Shown here piece by piece: positions 1-24,356 of a stretch of 32,389 bases of DNA; the first letter of the stretch is position 1, and the number at the start of each line of letters is the position of its first letter. Both the position numbers and the translations under genes were made by a program. Source of the stretch: Candidatus Huberarchaeum crystalense. Its GTDB lineage: Archaea > Huberarchaeota > Huberarchaeia > Huberarchaeales > Huberarchaeaceae. The notes under the pieces were generated by a model, which had not been told where the DNA came from, made no database searches, and saw only the letters and a list, made by a program, of their open reading frames with translations. Location: assembly GCA_002790315.1 (NCBI GenBank), contig PFUW01000020.1, positions 1 through 32,389 of the forward strand, written 5' to 3'.

Positions 1-225
1 AGAAATGAGTATTGATCAAATAAGATTATTTTCTACGCTTAACCTTGGAGAAGTTTTAAAAAATGTAAACATTTAATAACTTTGAAGTTTAATTAATTAA
101 TGTTAATTAATTAATGTTGGTGGCAAGAAAAAACAGAGTCGGCAATACTCATTTTTCAATAACTTTGAAAGATGGGTATTAACATCTTTATTAAGTTTTC
201 CAAAAGGCGACCCCGAAGGCAGATT

Positions 226-315
226 GCGTATAACGGCTGCGGACATACGAAGTGCGAGGCGAAGCCAAGCATTTGGGCGGAGCGAAGCATAGCCGTATGT
301 CCGCTGTTGTCCGAG
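226..315 (-). mobile_element. Integron attC-like recombination site
   Basis: GC-rich imperfect palindrome in AT-rich DNA. On the - strand it reads TCGGACAAC (R'' side, 314-306) ... GTTATAC (R' side, 234-228). Perfect 11-bp inner stem GCGGACATACG (239-249)/CGTATGTCCGC (294-304). Loop contains GCGAAGC motifs. Lies ~80 bp downstream of the stop of the last cassette gene. Confidence 0.75.
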
Positions 316-393
316 TGCGTTAGCACCGAGCAATCCGAAGGATTGCGAGAGTTCCGAACCCCCTCATGATTTTTTTTCTACTGTTTTGAAACA

Positions 394-1567
394 TCAGAAC
401 CATTCCGTGATTTTTATTTCTTTTGGAAATAGAACTTTTTTAAGCTCTCCTCCTTTATACTCGCTAATCATTGGTTTTTTGGTTATATATTTTTCAATGC
501 TCATTTCTTTCAAAAAATATTCTGTTTGAACAACCAGCTCCTCATCAAGAAGTTTTGAGTTAAATAAAATATTACGTTTTGGAATCATAAGTAAATTACG
601 TGTTTTAGCATCATAACTTGAAGTGTCTACTTTCGAATAATAATACGTAGAGGCGTCAAACACTCTAGCTTTGTGTTTTCTCAATTCAACAAGCTCTTCT
701 TTACTCAAAGGAGTTCCTATAGGCCTAGGCGGTTCTCTGTTTACCCCAACCAAGTTCGATCCAATTATTGATGCTATAATATCAGATGATGGAGTTTTAT
801 CGCTTTTTGGGTTTGAAATTATTTCTCTCTTTATATTCGTAGAGAAGGTAATAATATCATCTAATCTCCCATTGCTATCAACCTCCCTGAGAAAAGCCCT
901 TATTCGCGCTATTTTTGGTTTGGTAACAGCAGCTCCCTCAAAGTCGAACCAGATATTAAGGAACTCCTTTTTGATGTATTCTTTTACCAACCGTTTAATA
1001 TCATCTATTCCAAACTTTAAAGATACTGGAACAAATACCGGTTTTTTGTTTTTATAATCAAGGAGATGATAAACTTCTCCCACAAATTTTAGATACTTAT
1101 CTATGGTTATGATTGGTAGTTTTTTCTTCGTTATTATATCATACCTCTCGATTTTTATATTTGGAATAAGTGCTATCGGTGCTGAGAATGTGTAGTAATA
1201 CTCAAAATAACCTGAAATTTTTTCAATGTGGTTAAATTCCGTATATGGATTAAACCTGAATGTTTGGGAAATAATATATGGGTATTTGTCCATCCATTCT
1301 TCAAAACCAAATAATTTCTTAATCTGTTTATCTTCTCTTTCAGATAATACACGGTTAATAGTGGCGATGTCTACTAATTTAGAATGTTCAAAAATAACTC
1401 TTGGAAAGTTTTTTCCTTCTTTGATAAAAAGTTCTTTTGTCAGGCTTTTTTGCGTCTATTGTTTTAATAGGTCTGTCTATGTCTAACGTTCCGATTCTGA
1501 ACCGCTTCACATTAAAGTCTGACTTTTTATCACTAATGCACTCTTTTATCTCTATATTTTTAACCAT
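394..1567 (-). pseudogene. Frameshifted ~390-aa TIM-barrel protein, tRNA-guanine transglycosylase (TGT)-like, divergent
   Basis: ATG at 1567 with SD GAGGTG, 1 nt after the PIN stop. This frame (MVKNIEIKEC...RFRIGTLDIDRPIKTIDAK) stops at 1390-1388. The frame of the 299-aa ORF is open from 1455. Removing one base of the A6 run (1446-1451) fuses them. The N-terminus and alternating beta/alpha pattern (KPVFVPV, IWFDFEG, IIGSNLVG, LFNSKLLDEE) loosely resemble the TGT fold. No DSGG motif or Zn-Cys seen. Confidence 0.55.
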
Positions 1568-1568
1568 A

Positions 1569-2114
1569 TCAACACCTCTTTATTTCCTCCATGATTTGAT
1601 CTACTATATCGCCTTTGACCCTAAATCTTGATTTCTTTATTAAGTTCAAGATAGATATTGCTTCATCTTTAGAAAAAATTTTGTATGTACAACAAGAAAG
1701 TTTCACGAAACCTATTGTCCCGGTAACCTTTGTTGAAATATGTGGAAAGTTTCTTAGCAAAAACTTTTTTGTTTCATTATCATCCAGTATCGTTATAAAT
1801 CTGATGTTGAAAAGATATAAAATGTATGAAATAACGATGACTTCATGTTCCCCTCTTTTTATCTCATCGAACGAGAATAATGGTCTGAGTATCTCACCGT
1901 AATTATAGTATACGAAAATTTGAATGCGTGCTCCCACTACTTTTTCTATCATAGGATAGTTAGATGAATTTATAATTTCTTTTTTTATCAGTGGCCCGCT
2001 AACAAATTTGAATGTTTCGTAACTCAACATTCGAATAAAATATTGAGGTTTGTTTATGTCATCTAAAAAACAAATATAAAAGCTACTATCTGGAACTATA
2101 GTAACTTCAACCAT
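1569..2114 (-). CDS. PIN-domain nuclease (DUF3368-like)
   Basis: PIN acidic motifs: IVPDSSFYI, IKKEI, RGEHEVI, ILDD, VTGTIG. Start overlaps the upstream stop. Confidence 0.8.
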   Translation of the reverse strand: MVEVTIVPDSSFYICFLDDINKPQYFIRMLSYETFKFVSGPLIKKEIINSSNYPMIEKVVGARIQIFVYYNYGEILRPLFSFDEIKRGEHEVIVISYILYLFNIRFITILDDNETKKFLLRNFPHISTKVTGTIGFVKLSCCTYKIFSKDEAISILNLIKKSRFRVKGDIVDQIMEEIKRC

Positions 2115-2667
2115 TATACTTCACTAACTCTTTATATCTTCCTTCGGTAATTATCCATTTTTCCAGCAATCTTCTTGCTATTTCTTCTCTTTTTTGTGGT
2201 AAGAGGAGCTCGTCCGAAATCCTTGATTTCTGTCTGTACTCTGGATAAGTTGTATATACCAAAAATAGAAGTTCTTCTTTGGATAATTTATCGTATAATT
2301 CCCTAATCATTTTCATCATACCAAGCATTTCTTTAAATTTTGGCTCATCTGAGTGATCTTTCACAAGATTATCATAGTCTTTTTTTCCTTTAGAAGTAAG
2401 CCAACTTTTACCTTCCCGATCACGCTGATAAGCGCCAATATGATATACGGGGTTATTTATTAGGTCAGCAGTATCTACTGAGTATGGCCCTTCATAATGT
2501 TTTTCAAAAACAATAAAATTTGCAATTTTTGGGTTGGCTTGAGAGAGAATAAAGAGCTCTTTTTGTAGATGCTCAAGCGAGGGGACAGGCCTATCTACCA
2601 CTCCTAAAAGCAATATGATATATCGCTCTATTACTTCAATCTCTGTTAGTTCTTCTTTTTCACTCAT
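2107..2667 (-). CDS. Panacea/SocA (DUF4065)/YwgA-like winged-helix protein, putative antitoxin
   Basis: Motifs HLQKELFIL, FEKHYEGPYS, WLTSKGK, LLFLVYTTYPEY. SD GGTGA upstream. Confidence 0.65.
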   Translation of the reverse strand: MSEKEELTEIEVIERYIILLLGVVDRPVPSLEHLQKELFILSQANPKIANFIVFEKHYEGPYSVDTADLINNPVYHIGAYQRDREGKSWLTSKGKKDYDNLVKDHSDEPKFKEMLGMMKMIRELYDKLSKEELLFLVYTTYPEYRQKSRISDELLLPQKREEIARRLLEKWIITEGRYKELVKYNG

Positions 2668-2688
2668 TTTTCATCACCTTCTATTACC

Positions 2689-2829
2689 TTAACCAAGAAT
2701 GGGATTTAATCTTCCCATTTTGTTCCTCTCATTACTTGTTACTCTGGAGATACGAACTTTAAAAACCTCTAATACACTTTTTCCGTCTGCGATTATTCTT
2801 ACTTTGTTGTCAACAAGATATGCATCCAT
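2689..2829 (-). CDS. Small (46 aa) ORF, possibly a damaged AbrB/DUF2080-like DNA-binding protein
   Basis: SD GGAGTG then ATG: MDAYLVDNKVRIIADGKSVLEVFKVRISRVTSNERNKMGRLNPILG*. An alternative frame LVKVIEGDEK* ends in ATGA overlapping the next start, suggesting an internal indel. Below the ORF-track cutoff. Confidence 0.4.
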   Translation of the reverse strand: MDAYLVDNKVRIIADGKSVLEVFKVRISRVTSNERNKMGRLNPILG

Positions 2830-2847
2830 ATCATTACACTCCTATAG

Positions 2848-2945
2848 CGGGGTTCGGAATTTCGGACAACTTCGGTATATCCGACATTAATGTCGTATAT
2901 TCATACATTTTAGGATTATATCCGAAACTTACGTCGCATATATCA
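2848..2945 (-). promoter_or_regulatory. Putative attI-like site
   Basis: Core GTTGTCC (2870-2864) preceded by two related imperfect palindromes about 41 bp apart (ATATCCGACATTAATGTCGTATAT at 2877-2900; TATATCCGAAACTTACGTCGCATATA at 2917-2942), directly 3' of the integrase relic. Confidence 0.5.
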
Positions 2946-2960
2946 CCCTCTGACAGACTG

Positions 2961-3113
2961 CTAATCTTCATCCCCTTCCACCTCCTTCATCATATCTGAT
3001 TTCTTCATTATTAAATCTAAAGGGCTTTTTATCTTACCCAAATCNNNNNNNNNNNNNNNNNNNNCATGTGTGTATATTTCCGTATTCTTTGAAATTGTGT
3101 GTTCAAGTAGATC
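2961..3113 (-). pseudogene. C-terminal relic of a tyrosine recombinase (integron-integrase/XerD-like)
   Basis: DLLEHTISKNTEIYTH[gap]DLGKIKSPLD matches the box II consensus LLGHxSxKTTEIYTHV...IKSPLD including the catalytic Tyr. Upstream sequence is not integrase-like. N-gap at 3045-3064. Confidence 0.75.
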
Positions 3114-24040: not shown

Positions 24041-24282
24041 TTTATAATTACTATTGTCATAATGTTAGATTGGTTTTGATTTAGTTAAACTACGAGCAAG
24101 TTTTTGCATGTTGTTTAATTGTTTGCTTTTTATATTAAAAAAATTTTCAAGCAGTATTNNNNNNNNNNNNCCGCACGCTGGCGTGCGATTTCAAAAATGC
24201 CTTTCAGATTGCGGAAAAATACCCTGCCGAGGCGCTTTGCGCCGAGGCAACATCTTTCAATTTCGCTAAAAGTACAAATTAG

Positions 24283-24356
24283 TGGGGTCGCCAGGATTTG
24301 AACCCAGATCGCCAGCTCCCTAAGCTGGTATGCTAGCCAAGTTACACTACAACCCC
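24283..24356 (-). tRNA. tRNA-Pro (AGG)
   Basis: GGGGTTG/CGACCCC-A acceptor; anticodon arm CCAGC-TTAGGGA-GCTGG with G37; CTGGG-TTCAAAT-CCTGG T-arm. Confidence 0.92.

What the first reader, a model, noticed from the sequence alone, without database searches (positions are those of the whole stretch)
394..2829. Candidate new toxin-antitoxin/defence module: Panacea-like + PIN nuclease + TGT-like TIM barrel
Seen: three tightly coupled genes (8-bp overlap, 1-bp gap, SD motifs) plus a small upstream ORF, all inside one cassette. Known: Panacea/SocA domains are promiscuous antitoxins, PIN domains are RNases, TGT-fold proteins (Tgt, DpdA) act on tRNA or DNA bases, and integron cassettes are enriched in TA and antiviral genes. 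Inference: a tripartite module where the barrel senses or binds nucleic acid/nucleotide or is a second effector. I do not recognise this combination as a named system. The barrel's fold call is tentative and it lacks recognisable TGT catalytic motifs.
Basis: partly seen in the sequence, partly recalled or inferred. Interest (0 to 1): 0.8.

Follow-up and report, generated by a model that had tools for sequence, protein, structure and literature searches.

The report
Archaeal three-gene toxin-antitoxin-like cassette
A small mobile cassette, found mostly in archaea, always links an antitoxin-like protein, a PIN nuclease and a previously unnamed enzyme shaped like tRNA-guanine transglycosylase, which points to an undescribed toxin-antitoxin or defence module.

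Summary
On the minus strand lie a 46-aa ORF, a 186-aa gene, a 181-aa gene (8-bp overlap) and a 390-aa gene (1-bp gap) broken by one extra A at 1446-1451.

No curated family names any of the three products. Structure does:
- The large protein (AF2 pLDDT 93) is a TGT-fold barrel: ArcTGT Z 19.5, DpdA 13.6, Cap10 13.4, generic TIM barrels 11.8 or less. It has no conserved zinc cysteines and no profile-level link to TGT or to P4 beta/TIM-B.
- The 186-aa protein is a winged helix plus a DarG-C-terminal-like antitoxin fold (Z 10.7).
- The 181-aa protein looks like DUF3368-type PIN proteins.

The order antitoxin-like, PIN, barrel is kept in 49 of 53 loci with enough upstream DNA, and in barrel relatives of only 23-28% identity. 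A complex prediction places the antitoxin-like protein on the barrel's conserved loop face (0.85 against 0.00 for controls).

The integron claim is not supported, although the cassette is a discrete unit bounded by repeats. I found no published description of the trio. The closest concept is the TIM-B systems of a 2026 preprint. Verdict: a new variant of a known kind; the mechanism is inferred.

The parts
2689..2829 (-). 46-aa upstream ORF with an AGGAG motif; doubtful gene
   Evidence: ORF list. No relative in 50 upstream regions of related loci (tblastn). By eye, seven related loci carry AbrB- or RHH-like small ORFs at this position instead.
2107..2667 (-). 186-aa antitoxin-like protein: N-terminal winged helix plus helical C-terminal part. 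The whole protein resembles the DarG C-terminal toxin-binding domain.
   Evidence: AF2 pLDDT 94.0, pTM 0.88. Foldseek 7yk3_D E 6.6e-4, next hit E 0.4. VIA 7yk3_D Z 10.7, 154 aligned, rmsd 4.2; this is the only Z >= 8. PadR/MarR wHTH score Z about 7.5 over residues 1-110. PADLOC PDC-M19A 6.6e-7 and DarG 3.8e-5. No Pfam hit. 94 homologues.
1569..2114 (-). 181-aa PIN-like (DUF3368-type) putative RNase
   Evidence: 45 homologues, 17 with precomputed PF11848. 4 of 43 hit PF11848 in my own scan at E <= 0.1. Atlas structural look-alikes are DUF3368/PIN clusters, TM 0.74-0.85. Invariant D9, E46, E91, D111.
394..1567 (-). Gene for the 390-aa Zn-less TGT-fold (beta/alpha)8 enzyme. It is frameshifted in this copy (59-aa ORF 1388-1567 plus open frame 394-1455).
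   Evidence: Three-frame translation. Intact allele P0001. AF2 pLDDT 93.3, pTM 0.91. Fold matches. 17 invariant residues, no conserved Cys.
1446..1451 (-). A6 run holding the +1 frameshift; the intact allele has A5
   Evidence: Window against P0001. 'Left out 1' at 1446 in the contigs of X18 and X20 but not X2 or X11.
182..363 (-). GC-rich repeat element downstream of the operon, beginning GGGGGTTCGGAAC; the cassette's left boundary
   Evidence: Alignment with two other copies. Motif hits at C27:348-361(-), C27:2850-2863(+) and C22:87-100(+). No Rfam match. Fold z -1.7. Contigs branch at 181/182.
2848..2990 (+). Inverted partial copy of the same element, with two 25-nt palindromic repeats (2876-2900, 2917-2941); the cassette's right boundary
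   Evidence: Cassette contigs end at 2897 in three of four runs. Loose ends at 2858 and higher k-mer depth in the flank.

Best explanation
This is a conserved, horizontally spread, three-component toxin-antitoxin-like conflict cassette, mostly of archaea.

Gene 1 encodes a winged-helix plus DarG-C-terminal-like protein. It acts as the antitoxin and probably as the autoregulator. Gene 2 encodes a DUF3368-type PIN ribonuclease. Gene 3 encodes a zinc-less enzyme of the tRNA-guanine-transglycosylase fold.

My reading is that gene 3 is an active base-exchanging or base-removing enzyme acting on nucleic acid, or possibly on a protein. The gene-1 protein keeps it in check by sitting on its catalytic face, much as DarG's C-terminal domain holds DarT. 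The PIN nuclease is a second effector under the same antitoxin. Loss or titration of the antitoxin, for example during infection, would free both.

Shown here: the three folds, the strict gene linkage, the patchy and often island-associated distribution, and the frameshift polymorphism. Predicted only: the contact between gene 1 and gene 3. Inferred: toxicity, substrates, the trigger and any defence role.

In this window's strain the barrel gene is broken, so the copy here is probably only partly functional.
For: Linkage:
- 49 of 53 loci with at least 1150 nt upstream carry the three genes in the same order and strand, overlapping or adjacent.
- All 5 distant barrel relatives found in 400 other archaeal genomes keep the gene-1 homologue beside them, and 3 of the 5 also have a recognisable gene-2 homologue.
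- Loci with 23-28% barrel identity (L060, L061, L063) still have the trio.

Folds:
- Barrel: Z 19.5, 19.1 and 18.2 to TGTs, 13.6 to DpdA, 13.4 to Cap10.
- Gene 1: Z 10.7 to the DarG C-terminal domain in the DarTG complex 7yk3, and a PADLOC DarG hit over profile positions 170-302 of 329.
- PIN.

Barrel conservation. The 17 invariant residues include E60, D208, E248, R247, R301 and K364. D262 is kept in 67 of 69 and E210 in 67 of 69. Most invariant residues lie at or just after predicted barrel strands, as expected for a live active site.

Complex prediction. Score 0.85 against a best control of 0.00. That mark was reached by 58 of 80 solved complexes and 2 of 110 mismatched pairs. The three runs agree in at least 84% of contacts, and the partner's pLDDT is at least 87. 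The contacts join gene-1 residues 6-15, 45-85, 105-114 and 146-148 to barrel loops 140-149, 184-189, 212-221, 249-255 and the C-terminal tail. These loops lie next to the conserved S182, D208/E210 and T243-N252.

Context. Flanks vary. Recurring neighbours:
- Eco57I/MmeI-type R-M methylases: 8 loci
- DDE transposases: 6 loci
- tyrosine integrases: 3 loci
- DUF1156 methylase, and DUF499 and archaeal ATPases, seen beside distant relatives

Distribution. Only 5 of 400 other archaeal genomes have a barrel relative. The 63 loci come from many archaeal groups, and 4 are from MAGs labelled bacterial.

Decay. The barrel is the gene most often broken, in 6 lineages (window/L002, L005, L046, L048, L049, L050). 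In 2 of these (window, L049) genes 1 and 2 are both intact, and in L048 gene 1 is. Toxins are usually the first to decay.
Against: - No experiment exists for any member.
- No curated toxin, antitoxin or defence model matches the barrel or the PIN protein.
- Two loci keep an intact barrel while gene 1 is missing (L011) or split (L051), and L041 has a near-complete barrel alone. This is awkward if the barrel is a toxin that needs gene 1.
- The catalytic aspartates of TGT could not be mapped because no residue-level superposition was available. The sequence-pattern candidate 'ARVFD' (D304) is not conserved.
- The complex prediction used my own unpaired alignments and three chains, unlike its calibration.
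- The genome shows no QueC and no canonical TGT (78% complete). A deazaguanine substrate would therefore have to be imported, or is not used.
- A defence role is only suggested by neighbours. UvrA and tRNA-synthetase genes also recur in the flanks.
Confidence: 0.55

Rival explanations
1. TIM-B-type logic. The PIN nuclease is the only effector. The TGT-fold barrel is its constitutive negative regulator, making an inhibitory product or modifying a partner. The gene-1 protein is a transcription factor or second safety catch.
For: A 2026 preprint (10.64898/2026.10.19.760177, sections 32-33 read) unifies P4 beta ('TIM-B', PF14350) with the TGT fold. It reports TIM-B coupled to varied effectors, including an RNase (HigB), and proposes negative regulation. 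Here the effector-like PIN gene sits directly upstream of the barrel with a 1-bp gap, the same order as gop-beta in P4. A solved TGT-fold enzyme, Cap10, acts on a protein partner (entry title 9ntn). The predicted contacts include the N-terminal residues 6-15 of gene 1.
Against: - The barrel is not a PF14350 member by sequence. 0 of 69 members hit it among the 25 most-matched of 36 families shown at E <= 1. 0 of 4 hit PADLOC beta or PD-Lambda-2_C, while P4 beta scores 8.2e-188. hhalign to a 5-sequence beta alignment gives 0.03%.
- The frameshifted barrel allele, with an intact PIN gene, is the assembled form in two DNA runs (2014 and 2017). It sits on 50 contigs against 4 for the intact form. 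That is hard to reconcile with an indispensable brake on PIN, unless gene 1 suffices.
- The preprint's main text names neither PIN nor a DarG/PanA-like partner for TIM-B. Its supplements could not be read.
Confidence: 0.25
2. The trio is an integron gene cassette. It would be captured at attC-like sites by an integron integrase.
For: The unit is discrete. Contigs carrying it run from 151, 259 or 319 to 2897 in three runs and from 151 to 2680 in the fourth. Flanking segments have several-fold higher k-mer depth and several different continuations at 181/182, 223, 253 and 2858. A structured GC-rich element of about 180 nt follows the operon and recurs on another contig with compensatory-looking changes in one hairpin.
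Against: - No PF00589 recombinase was found in the genome (only 78% complete).
- Only three true copies of the motif exist in 453 kb, and the two that flank the operon are inverted relative to each other, unlike attC arrays.
- The window shows no array; ribosomal-protein genes follow.
- The folding z-score is only -1.7.
- In other genomes the trio sits in unrelated contexts.
Confidence: 0.1
3. This is a housekeeping RNA-modification or processing operon (a divergent TGT-like tRNA enzyme, a PIN processing nuclease and a regulator), not a conflict system.
For: The closest folds are tRNA enzymes. The window's genome has no canonical TGT. The cassette lies next to ribosomal-protein genes.
Against: - The family is sparse and patchy: 5 of 400 other archaeal genomes.
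- Flanks vary and include R-M genes, transposases and integrases.
- The barrel is frequently pseudogenised.
- Gene 1 has a DarG-C-terminal-like antitoxin fold.
- The cassette's contig has about half the depth of its right-hand neighbour contig: 668 against 1224 in X11 and 142.5 against 278 in X2 (contig depths are rough).
Confidence: 0.07

Closest known systems
TIM-B systems (phage P4 gop-beta-cII; Pfam PF14350 Beta_protein; PADLOC 'beta' and PD-Lambda-2_C), as analysed in bioRxiv 10.64898/2026.10.19.760177
   Same: A TGT-fold barrel without a tRNA role, encoded directly after a small effector or toxin gene in a mobile conflict locus. A link to antitoxin-type partners is discussed in that paper for PanA and TIM-B.
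   Different: No sequence or profile similarity. The partners here are a PIN nuclease and a DarG-C-terminal-like protein, which the paper's main text does not list. No convergent REase gene. Mostly archaeal, whereas PF14350 was not found in the 401 archaeal genomes searched; that search had no positive control.
tRNA-guanine transglycosylases (bacterial TGT, archaeal ArcTGT, QTRT1/2), DpdA and CBASS Cap10
   Same: The overall fold, including the N-terminal sheet and the C-terminal hairpin-helix extension. The model aligns over residues 3-384 to residues 6-354 of 1iq8.
   Different: 5-12% identity, and hhalign probability 0.1%. No CxCxxC...H zinc site. No linked QueC/D/E, DpdB/C or CD-NTase genes. 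Different conserved residues.
DarTG toxin-antitoxin system (DarG C-terminal domain bound to DarT, PDB 7yk3)
   Same: The 186-aa protein matches the DarG C-terminal domain along most of its length (Z 10.7). It is predicted to bind an enzyme that belongs to a nucleic-acid-modifying fold.
   Different: No macrodomain and no DarT-like ADP-ribosyltransferase. The partner enzyme is a TIM barrel, and an extra PIN gene lies between the two.
PanA (Panacea, DUF4065) antitoxins and DUF3368-PIN/UPF0175 pairs
   Same: Antitoxin-first operon order with small overlaps. Atlas structural look-alikes of gene 1 include clusters in which 20-21% of members carry SocA_Panacea, and one cluster in which 80% carry UPF0175. 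From memory, UPF0175 is the usual partner of DUF3368 PINs.
   Different: Pfam SocA_Panacea hits 0 of 64 members among the 25 most-matched of 35 families shown at E <= 0.1. The third gene is obligate here, whereas the Panacea paper (PMC8832971, passages read) found third genes only in subsets.

Membership tests
TGT-fold (deazaguanine transglycosylase-like) superfamily | (beta/alpha)8 barrel with the TGT-type N-terminal sheet and C-terminal hairpin-helix extension | tested here: met
   AF2 pLDDT 93.3. VIA 1iq8_A Z 19.5 (312 aligned, rmsd 4.0), 3unt_A 19.1, 6fv5_A 18.2, 7ui4_A 13.6, 9ntn_B 13.4; the next fold scores 11.8. All top 50 Foldseek hits are TGTs.
TGT family proper (Pfam PF01702) | Sequence-profile membership | tested here: not met
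   PF01702 is not among the 25 most-matched of 36 families shown for 69 members at E <= 1. The PF01702 genome search does not ring on the window's gene. hhalign A1 against a 15-sequence TGT alignment gives probability 0.1%.
TGT family proper | Zinc site CxCxxC...H in the C-terminal subdomain | tested here: not met
   No Cys column reaches 75% conservation in 69 sequences; only H298 is conserved. The TGT alignment has invariant C275, C277, C280 and H303.
TGT family proper | Catalytic aspartates (nucleophile and general acid; residue roles recalled from the literature) | tested here: inconclusive
   Invariant or near-invariant acids exist (E60, D208, E210, E248, D262). No residue-level superposition was available to me. 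D304 in 'ARVFD' is not conserved.
TIM-B / Beta_protein (PF14350) | Sequence-profile membership | tested here: not met
   PF14350 is not among the families shown for 69 members. PADLOC beta and PD-Lambda-2_C hit 0 of 4 members, against 8.2e-188 for P4 beta. hhalign gives 0.3% to P4 beta and 0.03% to a 5-sequence alignment. The control comparison of beta against TGT also fails, at 0.4%, so kinship at the fold level stays open.
TIM-B systems | Barrel gene directly downstream of an effector gene in one operon | tested here: met
   The PIN stop and the barrel start are 1 bp apart. The order is kept in 49 of 53 loci.
PIN domain (DUF3368 type) | PIN-like fold with conserved acidic residues | tested here: met
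   Atlas structure search: DUF3368/PIN clusters at TM 0.74-0.85 over 162-178 residues. PF11848 is precomputed on 17 of 45 homologues, but only 4 of 43 hit it in my scan and the window's own protein gives no hit. Invariant D9, E46, E91, D111. I made no fold model of my own.
Panacea / SocA (PF13274) | Sequence-profile membership | tested here: not met
   0 of 64 members among the 25 most-matched of 35 families shown at E <= 0.1. Atlas neighbours carry it on only 20-21% of members.
DarG antitoxin | C-terminal toxin-binding domain | tested here: met
   Foldseek 7yk3_D E 6.6e-4, TM 0.47. VIA Z 10.7 over 154 residues. PADLOC DarG 3.8e-5, profile positions 170-302 of 329.
DarG antitoxin | N-terminal macrodomain and a DarT partner | tested here: not met
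   The protein has only 186 residues, and the DarG match starts at profile position 170. No macrodomain or DarT hit in Pfam or PADLOC for any ORF of the cassette.
Integron gene cassette | Integron integrase, and attC sites in one orientation bounding each cassette | tested here: inconclusive
   No PF00589 match in the genome, but it is only 78% complete. The motif copies flanking the operon are inverted, and there are 3 true copies in 453 kb. The unit is nevertheless bounded by multi-context repeats.
Dpd system / type IV CBASS (TGT-like DpdA or Cap10 with deazaguanine supply) | Linked QueC-like, DpdB/C or CD-NTase genes | tested here: not met
   No recurrent flanking family of that kind in 63 loci; the clusters found in 3 or more loci are listed, and representatives were named. 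No QueC in the genome.

The most novel reading that the evidence does not exclude
The barrel is the first TGT-fold enzyme to act as a toxin or effector. It would be a zinc-less nucleobase-exchanging or base-excising enzyme that damages host or invader RNA or DNA. A DarG-C-terminal-like antitoxin holds it inactive by plugging its substrate face, and a PIN nuclease in the same operon finishes the modified or abasic nucleic acid. A variant of this reading: the barrel covalently modifies the N-terminus of its antitoxin partner, as Cap10 does to its cyclase. Together the three genes would form a mainly archaeal abortive-infection module that no current defence catalogue holds.
Probability: 0.25. 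Interest if true: 0.85.

Novelty: new variant of a known kind. Interest (0 to 1): 0.66.

Why it matters
Archaeal defence and toxin-antitoxin systems are poorly charted. Here are three families without any Pfam name that travel together through many archaeal groups, from Asgard to DPANN, and a few bacterial MAGs.

The large protein adds a third, sequence-distinct branch to the TGT fold outside tRNA modification, beside DpdA/Cap10 and TIM-B. It comes with a confident model, a clear set of conserved residues and a testable predicted complex.

If the barrel proves to be a base-exchanging toxin or a protein-modifying regulator, that would widen the known chemistry of conflict systems. It would also give a handle on how TGT-fold enzymes were recruited to immunity.

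Tried and rejected
- **Curated libraries.** Pfam, NCBIfam and PHROGs gave nothing usable for the three products. The only barrel hit was phrog_17886, E 0.016, function unknown.
- **PDB by sequence profile.** Nothing significant for any of the three alignments.
- **hhalign.** The barrel profile against TGT, P4 beta and a beta alignment gave 0.1%, 0.3% and 0.03%. The beta-against-TGT control is also negative, so these misses say nothing about the fold.
- **Viral structures (BFVD).** Only weak matches, TM 0.43 or less, and no P4 beta among the top 50.
- **Viral sequence.** No relative in 50,697 phage records (one chance hit, E 0.6). None in IMG/VR by pattern scan.
- **PF14350 genome search.** Nothing in 401 archaeal genomes, but the control genomes did not ring either, so this is uninformative.
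- **Complex prediction.** No confident contact between the barrel and the PIN chain was listed. The run with gene 1 replaced scored 0.00. This is no evidence against binding.
- **Rfam.** No family for the GC-rich flank.
- **Gene-decay pattern as a test of which gene is the toxin.** Mixed. The barrel is broken while gene 1 is intact in 3 lineages. Gene 1 is missing or split while the barrel is intact in 2-3 lineages.
- **RNA-library runs.** Four metatranscriptome runs hold 88-94% of the cassette's words. Contigs cannot show transcription, and DNA carry-over is possible.
- **Literature.** Eight searches (DUF3368 + transglycosylase; Panacea + DUF4065 + PIN; YwgA; TGT-like + defense + PIN; defence islands + TGT + TA; DpdA + toxin + antitoxin + archaea; PF14350; archaea + TA + TIM barrel + PIN + winged helix) found no description of this trio.


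Full report
**What is in the sequence**

On the minus strand of window 394-2829 lie four ORFs:

| ORF | Coordinates | Note |
|---|---|---|
| 46 aa | 2689-2829 | upstream ORF |
| 186 aa (gene 1) | 2107-2667 | |
| 181 aa (gene 2) | 1569-2114 | overlaps gene 1 by 8 bp |
| large gene (gene 3) | ATG at 1567 | 1 bp after the gene-2 stop |

Gene 3 reads 59 codons and then stops. A second frame is open from 1455 to 394. The two frames join across an A6 run at 1446-1451.

The protein database holds an intact 390-aa version (P0001, 99% identical) whose sequence corresponds to A5.

Contigs of four public runs were laid on the window:
- Two DNA runs, dated 2014 and 2017, carry the window's A6 allele.
- Two RNA-library runs of 2020 carry the allele with one letter fewer, together with three linked substitutions (593, 1400, 1954).

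The frameshift is therefore a real strain-level allele, not a one-off assembly error. It is also the commoner form in assemblies: the 299-aa product is on 50 contigs and the 390-aa product on 4. A short public MAG contig, L002 (labelled Ca. Altarchaeum sp. by its record), is 99.9% identical to window 1-2259 and has the same frameshift. It is not independent.

**What the three proteins are**

None of the ORF products matches Pfam at E <= 1. NCBIfam gives nothing usable.

PADLOC gives only weak hits, and only for gene 1: PDC-M19A at 6.6e-7, and DarG at 3.8e-5 over profile positions 170-302 of 329. PDB sequence-profile searches are empty for all three.

*The barrel (gene 3).*
- It has 88 homologues at E <= 1e-3 in the word-indexed search, none with a Pfam domain.
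- It has 143 cluster representatives in the exhaustive search of 1.84 billion proteins.
- An AlphaFold2 model from a 69-sequence alignment is confident: pLDDT 93.3, pTM 0.91.
- In Foldseek against the PDB, all top 50 hits are tRNA-guanine transglycosylases (best E 1.3e-8, TM 0.40-0.57, 7-12% identity).
- VIA-align against 48,161 chains gives the following:

| Structure | Z |
|---|---|
| ArcTGT 1iq8 | 19.5 (312 aligned, rmsd 4.0) |
| bacterial TGT 3unt | 19.1 |
| QTRT2 | 18.2 |
| DpdA 7ui4 | 13.6 |
| Cap10 9ntn_B | 13.4 |
| unrelated TIM barrels | 11.8 or less |

The family has 17 invariant residues: E60, S128, P135, P180, W206, D208, F209, T243, N244, R247, E248, S261, G269, G274, R301, Y308 and K364. 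D262 and E210 are each kept in 67 of 69. Most of these lie at or just after predicted barrel strands. This looks like a live active site.

No cysteine is conserved, so the TGT zinc site is absent (compare).

*Gene 1.* The AF2 model is confident (pLDDT 94.0).
- The only strong PDB match is the DarG C-terminal domain in the M. tuberculosis DarTG complex 7yk3. Foldseek gives E 6.6e-4 with the next hit at E 0.4. VIA gives Z 10.7 over 154 residues, the only Z >= 8.
- PadR/MarR winged helices match residues 1-110 at Z about 7.5.
- Pfam SocA_Panacea is absent from the 25 most-matched of 35 families shown for the 64 members.
- Atlas look-alikes carry SocA_Panacea on only 20-21% of members, and one look-alike cluster carries UPF0175 on 80%.

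'Panacea-like' therefore stays a lead. 'DarG-C-terminal-like antitoxin fold' is what was shown.

*Gene 2.*
- 17 of 45 homologues carry precomputed PF11848 (DUF3368).
- Only 4 of 43 hit it in my own scan.
- Atlas structural neighbours are DUF3368/PIN clusters at TM 0.74-0.85.
- D9, E46, E91 and D111 are invariant.

**Linkage and distribution**

A scan of one genome per species returned 63 loci with a barrel relative. 53 of them have at least 1150 nt upstream of the barrel. Of these 53:
- 49 have gene 1, gene 2 and barrel in that order, on one strand, overlapping or adjacent.
- One has only a truncated gene 2 (L011).
- Three have neither gene (L041, L046, L050; the last two have broken barrels).

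The trio persists at 23-28% barrel identity (L060, L061, L063).

In 400 other archaeal genomes only 5 have a barrel relative at E <= 1e-5. All 5 keep a gene-1 homologue beside it, and 3 have a recognisable gene-2 homologue. In one of the 5, the gene-1 homologue and a 187-aa ORF lie convergent to the barrel.

By record titles, the 63 loci come from Asgard, Thermoplasmatota, Archaeoglobi, methanogens, Thermococci, Bathyarchaeia, Nitrososphaeria and several DPANN groups. Four come from MAGs labelled bacterial.

Flanks differ from locus to locus. Recurring neighbours are:
- Eco57I/MmeI-type R-M methylases: 8 loci
- DDE transposases: 6 loci
- UvrA: 6 loci
- tyrosine integrases: 3 loci
- a DUF1156 methylase, a DUF499 ATPase and an archaeal ATPase, beside distant relatives

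No relative was found in phage records or IMG/VR contigs.

The 46-aa ORF is not conserved: 0 hits in 50 upstream regions.

**The cassette and the integron claim**

The operon is bounded by inverted copies of a GC-rich element that begins GGGGTTCGGAA. One copy is at 348-361 on the minus strand and one at 2850-2863 on the plus strand. The only other true copy in the 453-kb genome lies at the start of contig 22.

In the four runs laid:
- The contig carrying the operon starts at 151, 259 or 319. It ends at 2897 in three runs and at 2680 in the fourth.
- The flanks have several-fold higher k-mer depth.
- Several different continuations branch off at 181/182, 223, 253 and 2858.
- The cassette's contig has about half the depth of its right-hand neighbour contig (668 against 1224 in X11; 142.5 against 278 in X2). 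Contig depths are rough.

The trio is therefore a discrete, probably variable unit. An integron is not shown:
- No PF00589 recombinase was found (the genome is 78% complete).
- The flanking motif copies are inverted.
- The window holds no array.
- The element matches no Rfam family.

**How it may work**

A three-chain complex prediction scored the barrel against the other two proteins.
- The score was 0.85, against 0.00 for the best of three controls.
- That mark was reached by 58 of 80 solved complexes and 2 of 110 mismatched pairs.
- The three runs agree in at least 84% of contacts, and the partner's pLDDT is at least 87.
- The tool notes that my own alignments and three chains differ from its calibration.

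All confident contacts join gene 1 (residues 6-15, 45-85, 105-114, 146-148) to barrel loops 140-149, 184-189, 212-221, 249-255 and the C-terminal tail. These gene-1 residues include the conserved F54, H57, G60, P61, S63, P73, F111 and S148. The barrel loops follow the conserved S182, D208/E210 and T243-N252 on the strand-end face.

Together with the DarG-C-terminal fold of gene 1, this suggests that gene 1 neutralises, or is acted on by, the barrel at its active face. That is my best explanation. The PIN nuclease would be a second effector.

The main rival follows a 2026 preprint by Li, Burroughs and Aravind (10.64898/2026.10.19.760177; sections 32-33 and term passages read). It unifies phage P4 beta (TIM-B, PF14350) with the TGT fold. 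It reports TIM-B coupled to many effectors and proposes that it is a negative regulator.

By sequence, the barrel here is not a member of that family. The beta-against-TGT control also fails in hhalign, so kinship at the fold level remains open.

The persistence of the frameshifted barrel with an intact PIN gene argues mildly against the barrel being an indispensable brake. The gene-decay pattern across loci is mixed.

The genome has no canonical TGT and no QueC (78% complete), and no deazapurine genes recur in the flanks. A deazaguanine substrate is therefore not indicated.

**Novelty**

Eight literature searches found no description of this trio. PADLOC-DB 2.0.0 does not hold it.

The supplements of the Panacea paper (PMC8832971; passages read) and of the preprint could not be opened and might list it.

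I class the module as a new variant of a known kind: a TGT-fold barrel in a toxin-antitoxin-like conflict module. It has a new sequence family for each part and a mainly archaeal range.

Noticed in passing
window 182-363 (-), 2848-2990 (+); G000 C22:80-240 (L069): A GC-rich element of about 150-180 nt, beginning GGGGTTCGGAA, in an AT-rich genome. The first hairpin differs between copies in a compensatory-looking way. It matches no Rfam family. Its metagenome depth is several-fold above the cassette's, and it has many different neighbours.
   Followed up: partly
window 2876-2900 and 2917-2941: Two 25-nt imperfect palindromes (80% alike), 41 nt apart, just upstream of the operon and inside the multi-context flank. 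They could be an operator or promoter element, or part of the repeat.
   Followed up: no
L002 1-218 (junction at window 2259): In this near-identical public contig the 5' two-thirds of gene 1 are replaced by unrelated sequence. That sequence ends an ORF which looks, by eye, like the C-terminus of a transposase or integrase-type protein. This is either an insertion or an assembly chimera.
   Followed up: partly
L025, L026, L029, L034, L037, L039, L043 (just upstream of the gene-1 homologue): Seven DPANN or CPR loci carry a 50-69-aa ORF abutting gene 1. By eye these look like AbrB/SpoVT-type or ribbon-helix-helix DNA binders, a typical toxin-antitoxin regulator position.
   Followed up: no
window 24282-24356 (-): ARAGORN calls a tRNA-Pro with anticodon AGG. 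From memory, an A at the wobble position is unusual for an archaeal tRNA. An N-run lies nearby at 24159-24170.
   Followed up: no
whole genome G000: No PF01702 (TGT), PF06508 (QueC) or PF00589 (tyrosine recombinase) match in the 453-kb, 78%-complete genome. Its 20 nearest genomes in the collection share only the domain with it.
   Followed up: partly
L107 3556-4101 and L108 3631-4203 (L105 3547-4296 is annotated only as hypothetical protein): On two of the three annotated plasmids, the P4-beta homologue is followed by a convergent, 4-bp-overlapping 'sce7726 family protein' gene. A third plasmid has a hypothetical gene in the same position. This matches the convergent REase arrangement that the 2026 preprint describes for TIM-B systems.
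   Followed up: no
window 3045-3064 and five further sites: Six runs of N (84 bases in all) interrupt the window. One lies inside a 71-aa ORF just upstream of the cassette.
   Followed up: no
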